Assembly: GCA_036448835.1 (NCBI GenBank)
Contig: JAZFXR010000056.1
Coordinates: 1 to 30,222 of the forward strand
DNA from: Dehalococcoidia bacterium
GTDB lineage: Bacteria; Chloroflexota; Dehalococcoidia; GIF9; AB-539-J10
DNA: 30,222 nucleotides
Direction: 5' to 3'
In this document: in pieces, positions 19,826 through 26,347 of the stretch
Numbering within the stretch: the stretch's first letter is position 1
How the letters are laid out: the number at the start of each line of letters is the position of its first letter
Translations under genes and position numbers: made by a program
Notes under the pieces: generated by a model
The model's database searches: none
Told to the model about the DNA's origin: nothing
The model's input: the letters and a program-made list of their open reading frames with translations, nothing else

Positions 19826-20980
19826 CTAAGGCAGGTGTCTCCTTACTCCTGCCTTAACTTTAAACATCCCGCTACTGGCGAGGTGGCATAAATACGTATT
19901 GAGCATACCTACGTATTCATTTACTTCTGTATGATCGAATTGTATGACTTCATCGGCTATTCGTTGACAATAACTGCAGTTGCTACACCCGGATAGACAA
20001 CTTTGCTTCTTGAAGAAATCTATAAAACCTTCCAGAGCTTGGTTGTCTATATATAGTTTGGGTGGTGATCCAATAACGTCGTTTTTTACACCCGGCAAAT
20101 CAGAATGACCAAATCCAACTTCAGGAGTAATGATATTCAAAATATCGTATAGGTTCCCTTGATAACGACGTGATGAATACGCTTTGGCAGTATTCAAGAT
20201 TCGCTCGGTTGGCATCGCTCTACCACTCGTTTTGAACATATCGATACCTATATCTTCATAAACATGAATATCCTCGGGTCTTACCCAGCGGCATTTAATA
20301 GCCTGCGAGATATCCCACAGTCTGTCTAGAGTACAACGCAGTACACAATAATCTTCATAATATCCATTAAGCGGGTTATAACTTTGACTCGCATGCCCCA
20401 GGGTATCATGGTGGTAATATTCGTAGGGGCACTGGTATAAGCAGAGATTATTAAGTAGCACGGTGACCTCACAATTCACTGAGCTCCTGATAGCTTTAAG
20501 CAAGGTGAAGTCCCGGTTTACATTCATGTCCAGAGTGATAGAATCAGCGCCCAAGGACTCAAATAATTTGGCTCTAGCAACACTGCTCACATGAGCAATG
20601 GTTGACACCCTTACCTCAAGCTGTGGAAACTGACGCTTTATAAGCTCGATCAGATAAGGGATGCTCACTGTAACGCTATCCACGCCAATGCTACTTATCC
20701 ATCTAATTTGCTCTAATAATTCTCGATGAGTATTCTCATCCCACTCCATATTACCCATACTGGGAGCATTTAAGATATAGTCAAACTTCAAGCCCGCGGA
20801 ATGAGCATGTTCGATGTATTCCTCTGCTTGATTTTCTGCCATGTGGATATTATCTGTACCTCTCCCCCCACTACCTATCATTGAGGTGGGCAATACACCA
20901 TATATCTGCACCTCGGCGTCCAGTCTGCTCAGGGGTAATATCAAGTCTGGATCCCAATTCGTTGGTACTAGTAACTTCAT
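19826..20980 (-). CDS. U32 'peptidase' family protein, Cys-rich, probably Fe-S
   Basis: U32-like core (EVRVSTIA, ITLDMNVNRD, EVTVLLNNLC, FKTSGR); CX3CX27CX3C motif and a C-terminal CX3CX2CX2C. Confidence 0.8.
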   Translation of the reverse strand: MKLLVPTNWDPDLILPLSRLDAEVQIYGVLPTSMIGSGGRGTDNIHMAENQAEEYIEHAHSAGLKFDYILNAPSMGNMEWDENTHRELLEQIRWISSIGVDSVTVSIPYLIELIKRQFPQLEVRVSTIAHVSSVARAKLFESLGADSITLDMNVNRDFTLLKAIRSSVNCEVTVLLNNLCLYQCPYEYYHHDTLGHASQSYNPLNGYYEDYCVLRCTLDRLWDISQAIKCRWVRPEDIHVYEDIGIDMFKTSGRAMPTERILNTAKAYSSRRYQGNLYDILNIITPEVGFGHSDLPGVKNDVIGSPPKLYIDNQALEGFIDFFKKQSCLSGCSNCSYCQRIADEVIQFDHTEVNEYVGMLNTYLCHLASSGMFKVKAGVRRHLP

Positions 20981-21088
20981 GACACCTCGCTACGGCACAT
21001 TATACTGAAACAAAGCAGGGTAGATGTACCTATCTTTAGATATTTCTTCGTGTTAAGCGAAACCATATGCTATATCGTGATACGATGT

Positions 21089-21117
21089 ATTATGAATTTA
21101 AACAGTTTTTTTGTCAA
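21089..21117 (-). promoter_or_regulatory. proximal sigma70 promoter upstream of the U32 gene
   Basis: TTGACA (21117-21112), 17 nt, CATAAT (21094-21089). Confidence 0.7.
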
Positions 21118-21259
21118 TACCCCCAAATTAATAAGTCACTGCTCCACATTTTGTCACCAAGGAATTACACTGGGGCCCTTCTATGGAGACGGTGATACCG
21201 AATAGAAAGGGACAAAACTTAGGTTACACTTTGCATAGCTATATATTGCAATTCGCAGC

Positions 21260-21288
21260 ATTATGAACATAGAGAGATTTTTTGTCAA
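21260..21288 (-). promoter_or_regulatory. distal sigma70 promoter upstream of the U32 gene (duplicate of the proximal one)
   Basis: TTGACA (21288-21283), 17 nt, CATAAT (21265-21260); shares an exact 17-bp repeat TTTTTTGTCAATACCCC (21107-21123 and 21278-21294). Confidence 0.7.
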
Positions 21289-21370
21289 TACCCCTTCTCT
21301 ATTGCGATATAGCTAGATACCGCGTAAAACCATAGCAGCATAATATTATCCATTTCCAACTACAACCGAC

Positions 21371-22126
21371 TTAAGGAAATGCTCCCCCATCTATAGTGAT
21401 GACCTGTCCAGTGATATAGCCAGCTCTTTCACTGGCTAAAAAAGCTACTAGTTCAGCTACATCCTCAGGTTGACCAAAGCGCTGCAACGGAACCATTGCT
21501 AGTATAGCCTCTTTTCTTTCCGGAGGTAACTTATCCGTCATTCCAGTAACTATGAAACCCGGAGCCACGGCGTTGACAGTTATATTGCGGGAACCCGCCT
21601 CTCGGGCTATGCTTTTGGTGAAAGCAATGATCCCACCTTTAGAAGCAGCATAGTTGCTTTGTCCTATATTCCCTACTATTCCGGTCACCGAAGATATGCT
21701 AATAATACGCCCCCACTCCTGCCTCATCATAGACTTCAGGGCAAACTTTGTGCACAGATAAGCTCCCCGCAAATTAGTGTTGACTACATCGTCCCAGGCA
21801 TCATCAGACATTCTCAACAAGAGGGTATCTCTATTTATCCCGGCATTGTTCACCAGAATATCAACTCTGCTCCATCTATCAGTCACCTGCTCCACCATGG
21901 CTTTCACTGCTTCACTATCCCGCATATCTGCCTCAACCGCCATGGCCTCCCCGCCATTATGGGTTATACTCTCTACCAAATCATCAGCGTCAACTTTATT
22001 GCTGGCTTCAATTGCCACATAATTGACTGCTACCTTGGAACCGAGGTTAGCGAGCTTCAAGGCAATAGCTTTACCTATGCCGCGAGAAGCACCAGTAACT
22101 AGGGAAACCTTGCCTTCTAATTCCAT
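21371..22126 (-). CDS. fabG: 3-oxoacyl-ACP reductase (SDR)
   Basis: TGASRGIG, NNAGI, YAASKGG, NAVAPGFI, GQVITIDGG. Confidence 0.88.
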   Translation of the reverse strand: MELEGKVSLVTGASRGIGKAIALKLANLGSKVAVNYVAIEASNKVDADDLVESITHNGGEAMAVEADMRDSEAVKAMVEQVTDRWSRVDILVNNAGINRDTLLLRMSDDAWDDVVNTNLRGAYLCTKFALKSMMRQEWGRIISISSVTGIVGNIGQSNYAASKGGIIAFTKSIAREAGSRNITVNAVAPGFIVTGMTDKLPPERKEAILAMVPLQRFGQPEDVAELVAFLASERAGYITGQVITIDGGAFP

Positions 22127-25449: not shown

Positions 25450-25453
25450 ATTC

Positions 25454-25876
25454 TTATTTACTATCACTTGAGAACTTGACTGTCGTCTCTCCTGTAACTA
25501 TCATTTCACCCTTTTGATTGAGGCACTCAAAACTGCAATTTGCGTATGATACATCATCTCTTTGTTCAAGGCAAGTAATTTTGCCATTGATAGTCAGAGT
25601 ATCTCCGGGGCGTGCTGGCTCTTTGAATTTAGCGCGAAGTTTACCTTCAGACAGCCAGTTTTGGCCAAAAGCCGAAGTCATCATCTCTGACACATAAGCC
25701 AAACTAAGCATACCGTGAGCAATGGTTCCACCTAAAGGAGTTTTAGCAGCAAAAGACTCGTCTATGTGTATGGGATTAAAATCACCAGATGCCTCAGCAT
25801 AAAGGTTAATGTTCTCCTGTGTGATATGTTTTACCACCGGATCAAAAACTTTACCTTCTTGAATCTCTGTTAGCAT
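25454..25876 (-). CDS. MaoC/(R)-hydratase-type hotdog dehydratase, catalytic subunit
   Basis: Hydratase-2 motif YAEASGDFNPIHID (D-x4-H) and IAHGML. Confidence 0.9.
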   Translation of the reverse strand: MLTEIQEGKVFDPVVKHITQENINLYAEASGDFNPIHIDESFAAKTPLGGTIAHGMLSLAYVSEMMTSAFGQNWLSEGKLRAKFKEPARPGDTLTINGKITCLEQRDDVSYANCSFECLNQKGEMIVTGETTVKFSSDSK

Positions 25877-25883
25877 CTCTTCA

Positions 25884-26279
25884 CTAGGCGGGCAATGCTA
25901 TAGTTGCCTTCCCTGACTGTACTTTTTCTTTATCTTTATCAAAAACCTCTAGCTCCAGAATTAGCATACTCATTTTGCCCCGACTTATTTTCTGTAACAC
26001 TCCTATGTGACACTCTATAGTATCTCCAATTGGCACCGTTTTGAAAAACTCCAATTCTTGTGATGCATGTATGGCAATAGTGTCTGGTGGCAATGGAACA
26101 GATTTTGTCGTAGCAGCTATGGCGTAGGCTGTAATAGCCAAAGGGGGGACGAATCCATCACTTTCACTATCTACAGCTTTCAGATATTTGGAAACGAAGG
26201 ACGCACTCAGTTCAAAGGTGGTAGAAGGGAATTTGTAACCGGGTGTTAACTCTTCATAGCTTGTCGCTCTATCGGGCAT
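25884..26279 (-). CDS. MaoC-family hotdog protein without the catalytic motif (HadA-like partner)
   Basis: FVPPLAI, IHASQELEFFKTVPIGD hotdog strand pattern; no D-x4-H; adjacent to the catalytic MaoC gene. Confidence 0.7.
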   Translation of the reverse strand: MPDRATSYEELTPGYKFPSTTFELSASFVSKYLKAVDSESDGFVPPLAITAYAIAATTKSVPLPPDTIAIHASQELEFFKTVPIGDTIECHIGVLQKISRGKMSMLILELEVFDKDKEKVQSGKATIALPA

Positions 26280-26319
26280 GTGAATAGTTCCTGATACATC
26301 GGTATGCTATGTATATTAC

Positions 26320-26347
26320 ATTATACACTGCCGCTCATTATTGTCAA
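26320..26347 (-). promoter_or_regulatory. consensus sigma70 promoter of the fab-like cluster
   Basis: Perfect TTGACA (26347-26342), 16 nt, perfect TATAAT (26325-26320), 40 nt before the first gene. Confidence 0.8.

What the first reader, a model, noticed from the sequence alone, without database searches (positions are those of the whole stretch)
19826..26347. Candidate undescribed specialised-lipid system: self-contained FAS-II elongation module with PlsX and a U32 Fe-S enzyme
Seen: one co-oriented cluster, tightly packed from the first MaoC gene to fabG: MaoC pair, plsX, acp, fabL, fabF, fabG, then a U32 gene after a 390-bp gap with no evident terminator. It has all four elongation activities, a carrier and an exit acyltransferase, but no fabH, fabD or fabZ. 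FabF, ACP and PlsX all deviate from housekeeping consensus (see separate findings). Known: characterised U32 proteins (UbiU/UbiV, RlhA, TrhP) are Fe-S enzymes for O2-independent hydroxylation, not proteases. Inference: the cluster may extend a non-standard primer, oxygenate or otherwise modify the chain anaerobically via U32, and route it to membrane lipid through acyl-phosphate. The alternative is that this is the lineage's housekeeping FAS with an unrelated neighbour.
Basis: partly seen in the sequence, partly recalled or inferred. Interest (0 to 1): 0.8.

Follow-up and report, generated by a model that had tools for sequence, protein, structure and literature searches.

The report
Fatty-acid operon beside orphan U32 enzyme
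An uncultured cold-seep Dehalococcoidia bacterium keeps its main fatty-acid synthesis operon next to a separately transcribed, unstudied iron-sulfur "U32" enzyme that stays beside lipid genes in related genomes, which hints at, but does not show, oxygen-free modification of lipids.

Summary
On the minus strand lie MaoC-MaoC-plsX-acp-fabL-fabF-fabG, a 390-bp gap, a U32 gene, then rpsL.

The "self-contained specialised system" reading is only partly supported.
- In same-genus genomes (90-99% complete) this cluster holds the only PlsX, the only FabG above its curated cut-off and the only MaoC pair found; no FabZ was found. It is therefore the lineage's core FAS-II engine.
- FabD, a FabH-type enzyme and three PlsY genes lie elsewhere.
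Same-genus genomes also carry a more canonical acpP-fabF pair, not found in this 77%-complete assembly. The cluster's ketosynthase has a conserved gatekeeper Phe-to-Leu change.

The U32 gene has two conserved promoter-like sites of its own. It belongs to an uncharacterised MJ1657-like branch with a second, C-terminal Cys motif. In 69 of 70 assessable related loci it lies within two genes of fab genes or a fatty-acyl-CoA-ligase-like gene, in two orientations. The tree reduces this to one ancestral arrangement and a few rearrangements, and the closest outgroup relatives sit in other contexts. A lipid-directed, O2-independent role is my leading guess (about 40%), unproven.

The parts
26320..26347 (-). 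Promoter-like site of the fab operon (TTGACA-16-TATAAT, 12 of 12)
   Evidence: sequence read. It lies downstream of tRNA-Met at 26522-26594.
25884..26279 (-). MaoC-like hot-dog protein without the hydratase motif; probable non-catalytic HadA-like partner
   Evidence: Weak PF22622/PF13452 hits. No GDxNPxH motif in the translation. Always paired with the next gene in relatives.
25454..25876 (-). MaoC dehydratase subunit with an intact hydratase-2 motif (SGDFNPIH); probable catalytic HadB-like (3R)-hydroxyacyl-ACP dehydratase standing in for FabZ
   Evidence: PF01575 84 bits; HadB and fused HadA/HadB models hit below cut-off. Motif read. Its distribution across the class is nearly complementary to FabZ.
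24418..25467 (-). PlsX, phosphate acyltransferase (acyl-ACP to acyl-phosphate)
   Evidence: TIGR00182 295 bits against cut-off 243. Single full-length copy in same-genus genomes.
24176..24421 (-). Acyl carrier protein with the DSLD phosphopantetheine site; a paralogue of the canonical AcpP found in same-genus genomes
   Evidence: TIGR00517 71.2 bits, at the cut-off. Motif read. The canonical ACP scores 83-91 bits elsewhere in 5 of 5 same-genus genomes.
23407..24174 (-). FabL-type enoyl-ACP reductase
   Evidence: NF005975 363 bits against cut-off 328.
22136..23410 (-). FabF-type ketosynthase with the Cys-His-His triad and gatekeeper Phe replaced by Leu (GLGG)
   Evidence: TIGR03150 493.3 bits against cut-off 493.75. 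Alignment to a solved FabF, 4ls5. GLGG in 40 of 49 orthologues against GFGG in canonical paralogues.
21371..22126 (-). FabG, 3-oxoacyl-ACP reductase
   Evidence: TIGR01830 327 bits against cut-off 298. It is the best FabG of each same-genus genome.
21260..21292 (-). First of two repeated promoter-like sites in the fabG-U32 gap (GGTATTGACAAAAA..CATAAT)
   Evidence: Conserved in 10 relatives.
21089..21121 (-). Second repeated promoter-like site; probable U32 promoter
   Evidence: A metatranscriptome contig identical to 20888-21084 ends where a transcript from this site would begin.
19826..20980 (-). U32-family Fe-S protein of the MJ1657-like branch: TIM barrel plus a C-terminal CX3CX2CX2C motif
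   Evidence: PF01136 46 bits. Model with pLDDT 80 and pTM 0.83. Best solved match 5d88, E 7.6e-11. Best Swiss-Prot model MJ1657, TM 0.75/0.86. Conserved Cys at 170, 180, 184, 212, 216, 328, 332, 335 and 338.

Best explanation
There are two adjacent but separate units.

(1) The seven genes MaoC-MaoC-plsX-acp-fabL-fabF-fabG are the core type II fatty-acid synthesis operon of this Dehalococcoidia lineage, driven by the promoter at 26347.
- A heterodimeric MaoC (HadAB-like) dehydratase stands in for FabZ.
- FabG, FabL and the ketosynthase complete the elongation cycle on the operon's own ACP.
- PlsX hands acyl chains on as acyl-phosphate to PlsY enzymes encoded elsewhere.
- Malonyl loading (FabD) and initiation (a FabH-type enzyme in a second lipid cluster) are also encoded elsewhere.
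- Same-genus genomes have an extra canonical acpP-fabF pair that has no reductases or dehydratase beside it. No other FabG above its cut-off and no other dehydratase candidate was found, so it presumably uses this operon's.
- Shown: gene identities, copy numbers, and the complementary distribution with FabZ. Inferred: the biochemical roles.

(2) The U32 gene is its own transcription unit, with two conserved promoter-like sites. It encodes an uncharacterised MJ1657-like branch of the Fe-S "U32 oxidase" family, with a probable barrel-associated cluster and a second C-terminal Cys4 site. In its clade it has stayed between a fatty-acyl-CoA-ligase-like gene and the fab operon. My best guess is that it carries out an O2-independent oxidative (hydroxylation-type, perhaps prephenate-dependent) step on a fatty-acyl or lipid substrate. 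This last step is inference from gene neighbourhood only.

Sub-confidences: core FAS-II about 0.75; separate transcription about 0.7; lipid-directed U32 about 0.4.
For: Gene identities.

Core status of the operon:
- PlsX is single-copy in 15 of 15 same-genus genomes.
- The best FabG (326-332 bits) sits in this cluster in 5 of 5.
- No FabZ in the window's genome or in the three other genomes of its family that were searched.
- Across 121 class genomes 55 match FabZ and 34 match MaoC2. Four match both, two of them with strong FabZ hits.
- FabD is on C123 beside yceD; the FabH type scores 449 bits on C61; three PlsY genes.

Paralogous pair: canonical FabF (599-622 bits) and ACP (83-91 bits) elsewhere in same-genus genomes. 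In G491 they sit beside DsbD and redoxin genes, not fab genes.

U32 as a separate unit:
- Two 11/12 promoter-like repeats, conserved at 87% column identity in 10 relatives.
- RNA-library contigs identical to U32, one ending at the predicted start, and none across 21170-21436 in two of the runs.

U32 family. Cys conservation.

Neighbourhood:
- 56 of 76 loci have fab genes and 38 have the ligase within two genes of U32; only 1 assessable locus has neither.
- DegV and a B12 radical-SAM gene often lie next to the ligase.

Prephenate is available: chorismate synthase in 5 of 5 and a chorismate mutase in 5 of 5 U32-bearing genomes.
Against: - The canonical acpP-fabF pair is the more widespread one in the order, so which ACP and ketosynthase carry bulk synthesis is open.
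- A FabK-like NMO-family gene (286-312 bits, below cut-off) exists elsewhere and could be a second enoyl reductase.
- The U32-lipid link rests on one ancestral gene order (ligase, U32, fab) and two or three rearrangements. A breakpoint on either side of U32 would leave it beside a lipid gene by chance.
- Same-family genomes without this U32 (G174) have the same fab operon, so U32 is dispensable for FAS.
- The closest outgroup relatives (45-47% identity) sit beside aromatic prenyltransferases, a shikimate operon or B12 radical-SAM genes, not fab genes.
- Known U32 substrates are aromatic or heteroaromatic carbons, not alkyl chains (PMC10990095, PMC11574389).
- The U32-ACP complex prediction gave no verdict.
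Confidence: 0.5

Rival explanations
1. The cluster plus U32 is one dedicated, specialised-lipid system. Its divergent ketosynthase and ACP extend a non-standard primer, U32 oxygenates the ACP-bound chain anaerobically, and PlsX exports the product. Ordinary fatty acids come from the canonical acpP-fabF.
For: - A canonical acpP-fabF pair exists elsewhere in same-genus genomes.
- The cluster ketosynthase has a conserved gatekeeper Phe-to-Leu change.
- U32 adjacency is conserved in two orientations.
- An extra ACP lies directly beside U32 in some loci.
Against: - There is no second PlsX, dehydratase or FabG above cut-off to serve the canonical pair.
- U32 has its own promoters and is convergent with fab in the ancestral layout.
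- Relatives with the same operon lack U32.
- A related lineage keeps U32 with only PlsX-ACP-SDR-KS and no dehydratase or FabG (G080).
Confidence: 0.15
2. U32 hydroxylates an aromatic or prenylated small molecule (quinone-like or phenolic), as UbiU/UbiV do. Its place beside the fab genes is inherited synteny with no functional meaning.
For: - The closest outgroup relatives lie beside UbiA, a PTase_Orf2 aromatic prenyltransferase with a shikimate operon, and UbiE-like methyltransferases.
- Paralogues sit beside xanthine-dehydrogenase-type Mo enzymes and UbiD.
- Known U32 chemistry is on aromatic rings (PMC10990095).
- The linkage to fab reduces to few independent events.
Against: - No prenyltransferase or quinone gene lies near U32 in any of the 76 orthologous loci.
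- The steady partners are a fatty-acyl-CoA-ligase-like gene, fab genes, DegV and ACP.
Confidence: 0.2
3. U32 is an RNA hydroxylase in the manner of TrhP or RlhA, placed at the head of the ribosomal-protein superoperon.
For: - Two of the three characterised U32 functions are on RNA (PMC5727448, PMC6599085).
- It is the only U32 in this genome.
- rpsL-rpsG-fusA follow it here, and ArgRS and Trp/TyrRS genes follow it in another clade.
Against: - Only 13-18% identity and TM about 0.5 to TrhP and RlhA models, against 27% and 0.75/0.86 to MJ1657.
- No TrhP or RlhA C-terminal domains.
- Found in only 7 of 401 sampled Chloroflexota genomes.
- The rpsL adjacency is confined to one derived clade.
Confidence: 0.1

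Closest known systems
Mycobacterial HadAB/HadBC (3R)-hydroxyacyl-ACP dehydratases of FAS-II
   Same: Two small adjacent MaoC/hot-dog genes. Only one carries the hydratase-2 motif. They sit in a FAS-II context in genomes that lack FabZ.
   Different: The NCBIfam HadA and HadB models hit far below cut-off (25-39 bits against 180-203). Here the pair serves the only FAS rather than a meromycolate extension system. Activity is untested.
Bacillus-type FAS-II with FabL and the PlsX/PlsY acyl-phosphate route
   Same: The FabL, FabG and PlsX equivalog models are passed, and PlsY genes are present. plsX lies in the fab operon.
   Different: fabD and fabH are not in the operon. There is no FabZ. The operon's ketosynthase and ACP are paralogues of a separate canonical acpP-fabF pair. 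The gatekeeper Phe is Leu.
UbiU/UbiV, TrhP and RlhA: Fe-S U32 oxidases for O2-independent, prephenate-dependent hydroxylation
   Same: A PF01136 match, a TIM-barrel fold and conserved Cys after the barrel. The route to prephenate is present in bearer genomes.
   Different: Identity is 11-18%. The Cys spacing is C-x9-C-x3-C-x27-C-x3-C, not CX6CX15CX3C (PMC11574389). There is an extra C-terminal CX3CX2CX2C. It has no partner U32, no UbiT, and no RNA-type C-terminal domains. Its neighbourhood is lipid genes.
MJ1657 (M. jannaschii) and MK0906 (PDB 5D88), uncharacterised U32 proteins
   Same: These are the best structural matches: MJ1657 with TM 0.75/0.86 and 27% identity over residues 1-350; 5D88 with E 7.6e-11 by fold and 6e-16 by profile.
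   Different: Neither has a known function. No paper in the searched library mentions MJ1657.

Membership tests
Type II fatty-acid synthase (elongation cycle) | Ketosynthase with a Cys-His-His triad | tested here: met
   Alignment to the solved FabF 4ls5 shows the Cys and both His aligned. TIGR03150 scores 493.3 bits, 0.45 below its cut-off.
Type II fatty-acid synthase (elongation cycle) | ACP with a DSL phosphopantetheine site; FabG; enoyl reductase | tested here: met
   DSLD motif. FabG 327 bits against 298 and FabL 363 bits against 328.
Type II fatty-acid synthase (elongation cycle) | FabZ/FabA-type dehydratase | tested here: not met
   No FabZ match in the window's genome or in the three other genomes of its family that were searched. 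The MaoC pair is the candidate substitute.
HadAB-type heterodimeric dehydratase | One subunit with the hydratase-2 Asp/His motif and one without; membership in the curated HadA/HadB models | tested here: inconclusive
   The motif is present in one subunit and absent in the other. The HadA and HadB models score far below cut-off. The resemblance is functional; membership is not shown.
PlsX phosphate acyltransferase | Equivalog model TIGR00182 passed | tested here: met
   295 bits against cut-off 243.4. The claimed deviation from housekeeping PlsX is not borne out at this level.
U32 family (PF01136; Fe-S U32 oxidases) | Pfam model match and a 5D88-like TIM barrel | tested here: met
   46 bits against 22.4, covering only the first 89 of 233 profile positions. 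5D88 is the top fold match.
U32 family (PF01136; Fe-S U32 oxidases) | Four conserved Cys in CX6CX15CX3C spacing (PMC11574389) | tested here: not met
   The conserved Cys are 170, 180, 184, 212 and 216, spaced x9, x3, x27 and x3. Conserved Cys are present in the region but the spacing differs. A second Cys4 motif lies at 328-338.
U32 family (PF01136; Fe-S U32 oxidases) | Fe-S cluster binding and prephenate-dependent hydroxylation | not testable with these tools
   Only the capacity to make prephenate could be checked in bearer genomes.
UbiU/UbiV | A pair of U32 paralogues plus UbiT, in a ubiquinone producer | tested here: not met
   A single U32 in the genome. 11-15% identity to the UbiU and UbiV models.
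TrhP / RlhA | A U32 domain plus family-specific C-terminal domains; equivalog models | tested here: not met
   The TrhP model scores 23 bits against cut-off 534. No Pfam family other than PF01136 was hit, so no RlhA- or TrhP-type C-terminal domain.

The most novel reading that the evidence does not exclude
This MJ1657-like U32 branch is the first U32 enzyme that acts on lipids. It would be an O2-independent, possibly prephenate-dependent, oxygenase or oxidase of fatty-acyl-ACP, acyl-CoA or membrane lipid in strictly anaerobic Dehalococcoidia. Working with the adjacent acyl ligase and the operon's own ACP and ketosynthase, it would make an oxygenated or otherwise modified membrane fatty acid.
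Probability: 0.25. Interest if true: 0.8.

Novelty: new variant of a known kind. Interest (0 to 1): 0.45.

Why it matters
Only three substrates of the U32 "oxygen-free hydroxylase" family are known: ubiquinone precursors, tRNA U34 and 23S rRNA C2501. Most subfamilies are unassigned. A branch that keeps company with fatty-acid synthesis, acyl activation and fatty-acid-binding genes in strict anaerobes gives a concrete, testable candidate for oxygen-independent lipid oxidation.

The analysis also clarifies how these abundant sediment Dehalococcoidia make fatty acids. A split MaoC dehydratase replaces FabZ. Initiation and loading genes are dispersed. Up to three ketosynthase/ACP pairs share the one reductase and dehydratase set found.

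If U32 turns out unrelated to lipids, what remains is an ordinary, though non-textbook, housekeeping operon.

Tried and rejected
- Complex prediction of U32 with the operon's ACP: no verdict (score 0.00). This is no evidence either way.
Eleven contexts were sampled by exact look-up instead.
- Rfam found only two tRNAs in the window. A structured RNA between the two promoter repeats is not supported (RNAalifold -11.8 kcal/mol, little covariation).
- Literature searches for "peptidase U32" with Dehalococcoides, and for MJ1657, gave nothing.
- I considered that U32 might explain the furan fatty acids reported in Dehalococcoides. I dropped the idea because the sampled single-contig 1.4-1.9 Mb genomes of the class lack this U32.
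- The raw count of U32 loci beside lipid genes (69 of 70) is not independent evidence. The tree shows the arrangements are clade-bound.
- The acyl-ligase orthologue of this genome (contig C62) has no informative lipid neighbours.
- The FabK-like gene has no fab neighbours.

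
Full report
WHAT IS THERE

The window is a contig of an uncultured Dehalococcoidia bacterium. All 85 confirmed relatives of its U32 protein among the species genomes scanned are labelled Dehalococcoidia or Chloroflexota (80 were kept as loci). 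DNA runs that hold the stretch are cold-seep and marine-sediment metagenomes. The assembly is 873 kb in 147 contigs and 76.6% complete.

On the minus strand, downstream of a tRNA-Met and a 12/12 sigma-70-like site at 26347-26320, lie seven packed genes:
- a MaoC-like protein;
- a MaoC dehydratase (PF01575, 84 bits);
- PlsX (TIGR00182, 295 bits, cut-off 243);
- ACP (TIGR00517, 71.2 bits, cut-off 70.45);
- FabL (NF005975, 363 bits, cut-off 328);
- a FabF-type ketosynthase (TIGR03150, 493.3 bits, cut-off 493.75);
- FabG (TIGR01830, 327 bits, cut-off 298).

After a 390-bp gap comes a 384-residue U32 protein (PF01136, 46 bits, first 89 of 233 profile positions only). Then follow rpsL, rpsG, fusA and the ribosomal-protein superoperon.

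THE FAB CLUSTER IS THE LINEAGE'S CORE FAS-II ENGINE, NOT A SELF-CONTAINED EXTRA

Parts encoded elsewhere in this genome:
- FabD is on contig C123 beside yceD and nusB.
- A FabH-type synthase (NF006720, 449 bits, cut-off 285) is on contig C61, in a second lipid cluster with its own ketosynthase, ACP and two CrtI-like flavoenzymes.
- There are three PlsY-family genes.
- No FabZ was found.

Dehydratase. One MaoC protein carries the hydratase-2 motif (SGDFNPIH) and the other does not, as in HadAB-type heterodimers. Across 121 class genomes of at least 90% completeness, 55 match FabZ and 34 match this MaoC subunit. Four match both, two of them with strong FabZ hits. Whole families switch from one to the other; for example one family is 0/7 for FabZ and 7/7 for MaoC, and several others are 6/6 and 0/6. 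This supports, without proving, that the MaoC pair does FabZ's job.

Copy numbers in same-genus genomes:
- PlsX is single-copy in 15 of 15, at 90-96% completeness.
- The best FabG (326-332 bits) sits in this cluster in 5 of 5, at 95-99% completeness.
- One same-genus genome (G491) has the identical fab-U32-rpsL order.

- 13 of 15 same-genus genomes hold a full-length FabF of 599-622 bits elsewhere, and two more hold partial matches. The window-type ketosynthase scores 478-502 bits, and a third, C61-type ketosynthase 311-328 bits.
- 5 of 5 hold a canonical ACP of 83-91 bits next to that FabF. The window-type ACP scores 68-74 bits.
- In G491 the canonical pair sits between redoxin/DsbD genes and a restriction-modification system, with no reductase or dehydratase beside it.
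- The pair was not found in this 77%-complete assembly. That does not show absence.
- The window-type ketosynthase keeps the Cys-His-His triad but has Leu in place of the gatekeeper Phe. GLGG occurs in 40 of 49 orthologues, and GFGG in all four canonical paralogues checked.

The picture is one reductase/dehydratase/PlsX set serving two or three ketosynthase-ACP pairs. Which pair carries bulk synthesis is open. A FabK-like NMO-family gene (286-312 bits, cut-off 453) stands alone elsewhere and could be a second enoyl reductase.

U32 IS A SEPARATE TRANSCRIPTION UNIT

- The gap holds two copies, 171 bp apart, of a promoter-like repeat (GGTATTGACAAAAA, a 17-nt spacer, CATAAT; 11/12 each). No terminator-like site lies between fabG and U32.
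- The whole gap is 87% identical per column across ten relatives whose U32 proteins are 79-90% identical. Both repeats are invariant.
- In four sediment metatranscriptome runs, short contigs with 0-1 mismatches cover U32, FabG, FabF and FabL. One covers 20888-21084 exactly and ends where a transcript from the second promoter would begin.
- The stretch 21170-21436 has depth 0 in two runs and about 0.5 in the other two. The U32-rpsL spacer is empty in all four.
- These are assembled contigs from RNA libraries, so this is suggestive only.

WHAT THE U32 PROTEIN IS

- The model (pLDDT 80, pTM 0.83) is a TIM barrel. Its best solved match is the U32 protein MK0906, 5D88 (Foldseek E 7.6e-11; profile E 6e-16).
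- Its best Swiss-Prot model is the uncharacterised MJ1657 (TM 0.75/0.86, 27% identity over residues 1-350).
- TrhP, UbiU, RlhA and UbiV match at TM 0.4-0.5 by the query and 11-18% identity.
- Nine Cys are conserved in 72 sequences: 170, 180, 184, 212, 216 and 328, 332, 335, 338.
- The first group does not have the CX6CX15CX3C spacing described for U32 oxidases (PMC11574389).
- The second group, CX3CX2CX2C, is also nearly invariant in 59 relatives of only about 32% mean identity, along with two His and an RPED motif.
- The wider family is large: 503 clusters at 50% identity with E up to 1e-30. It is unnamed beyond "collagenase-like PrtC protease".
- It is the only U32 in this genome. Orthologues occur in only 7 of 401 sampled Chloroflexota genomes and are missing from some genomes of the same family.
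- No paper in the searched library links U32 to Dehalococcoides or mentions MJ1657.
- Twelve U32 subfamilies have been distinguished, and most are uncharacterised (PMC5727448, PMC10990095).

IS U32 TIED TO LIPID METABOLISM?

Among 76 related loci:
- 56 have fab genes within two genes of U32;
- 38 have a divergently or convergently placed AMP-binding gene whose best model is long-chain-fatty-acid-CoA ligase (404 bits, cut-off 476);
- 7 have neither, and 6 of those are cut by a contig end.

DegV fatty-acid-binding genes (up to four), a B12 radical-SAM gene with DUF4070, and sometimes an extra ACP complete the neighbourhood.

Two orientations occur: fab then U32 co-oriented, as here, and ligase-U32 divergent with U32 convergent on fab. 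The U32 tree shows these are clade-bound. The ligase-U32-fab order is found in three deep clades and is probably ancestral. The co-oriented order is one derived clade that lost the ligase neighbour. The fab-less order is another derived group that kept the ligase. A breakpoint on either side of U32 would give these outcomes by chance. The real evidence is therefore one ancestral order kept down to about 55% protein identity while other neighbours changed (S12, ArgRS, GcvT, MFS).

Points against a functional tie:
- A same-family genome without U32 has the same fab operon, followed instead by a second PlsX-like gene, a metallo-beta-lactamase-fold gene and DegV.
- The nearest outgroup relatives (45-47% identity) lie beside UbiA with a tandem U32 paralogue, beside a PTase_Orf2 prenyltransferase with a shikimate operon, or beside B12 radical-SAM genes.
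- Other relatives sit with many B12 radical-SAM genes, with a class I methyltransferase that hits both the CMAS and UbiE models plus an LPG-synthase C-terminal-domain gene, or with Mo-hydroxylases.

A point that leans the other way: one lineage (G080) keeps U32 with only PlsX-ACP-SDR-KS, four DegV genes, the ligase and the radical-SAM gene. It has no MaoC, FabZ or adjacent FabG. U32 there goes with acyl handling rather than with de novo synthesis.

MECHANISM, WITH ODDS

Shown: gene content, copy numbers, family membership, conserved Cys, conserved promoters, conserved neighbourhood.

Inferred:
- The operon makes the cell's acyl-ACPs and feeds PlsX/PlsY.
- U32 binds two Fe-S clusters.
- U32 performs an O2-independent oxidation.

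Bearer genomes can make prephenate: chorismate synthase in 5 of 5, and AroH-type or type II chorismate mutase in 5 of 5. The known U32 oxygen donor is therefore available, but this does not discriminate between readings.

For the U32 substrate I put about 40% on a fatty-acyl or lipid substrate, 20% on an aromatic or prenylated small molecule, 10% on RNA, and the rest on something else. The chemistry proposed for U32 enzymes (oxidation of an aromatic ring, then hydroxide delivered from prephenate, PMC10990095) does not transfer readily to an alkyl chain. This is the main a priori objection to the lipid reading.

COMPARISON AND NOVELTY

- The fab operon works like a Bacillus-type FabL/PlsX FAS-II with a HadAB-like dehydratase. 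It is a member of the FabG, FabL and PlsX equivalog families, sits at the edge of the FabF and ACP models, and is not a member of the curated HadA/HadB models.
- An earlier follow-up in this scan reached the same view of this operon type in another Dehalococcoidia genome.
- U32 is a member of PF01136 but not of the UbiU/V, TrhP or RlhA subfamilies.
- The lipid-gene association of this branch is, as far as the searched literature shows, undescribed.
- Verdict: a new variant of a known kind, with moderate interest. The ordinary part (housekeeping FAS) is well supported. The interesting part (U32 acting on lipids) is a lead that can be tested directly but rests on weak, phylogenetically non-independent context.

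Noticed in passing
own genome contig C61 (locus L093:474-6097), not in the window: A second lipid cluster: FabH-type synthase (NF006720, 449 bits), a divergent ketosynthase (319 bits), its own ACP and two CrtI-family flavoenzymes. Same-genus genomes have a FabG-like gene (288-297 bits) about 3 kb away. It resembles the uncharacterised 'ladderane-type' or OleA-linked FAS clusters noted elsewhere in this scan.
   Followed up: partly
window 21085-21295 (minus strand): A tandem duplication of a ~60-nt promoter-like element upstream of U32, invariant in ten relatives. Each copy is followed by a short ATCG..CGAT inverted repeat that could be an operator. No convincing RNA structure lies between the copies.
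   Followed up: partly
locus L100:8269-9879 (same-genus genome G491); likewise G499, G500, G374, G498: A canonical acpP-fabF pair stands apart from all other fab genes, beside DsbD-like and redoxin genes. In G491 it is also next to a restriction-modification pair.
   Followed up: partly
locus L108 (genome G080), 1545-12853: A reduced lipid locus: four tandem DegV genes, a B12 radical-SAM gene, an acyl ligase, U32, then KS-SDR-ACP-PlsX. No MaoC, FabZ or adjacent FabG was found. This suggests a lineage that lives on scavenged fatty acids.
   Followed up: partly
same-order genomes G071, G098, G134, G302 (family f2): Genomes of 97-99% completeness in which no FabF match was found. Three of the four also lack a PlsX match and G098 has one. 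They are possible fatty-acid auxotrophs.
   Followed up: no
same-genus genomes, for example G500:C4:39632-40264: The best PlsY match carries one in-frame TGA in 8 of 12 same-genus genomes (TAA in two more). The copy in this genome (C125:4586-5212) has none.
   Followed up: no
loci L113/L114:8001-11326; L095:8001-17446; L106; L109: Paralogues of this U32 branch sit in four other contexts: in tandem before a UbiA prenyltransferase; beside a PTase_Orf2 fusion and an archaeal-type shikimate operon; beside xanthine-dehydrogenase-type Mo enzymes; and repeatedly among B12 radical-SAM genes. One complete Dehalococcoidia genome (G008) has four paralogues.
   Followed up: partly
window 27271-30220 (plus strand): A mannosyl-3-phosphoglycerate synthase (PF09488, 505 bits) is followed by an asparagine-synthase-like gene, divergent from the fab operon. 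A separate first-reader note exists on it.
   Followed up: no
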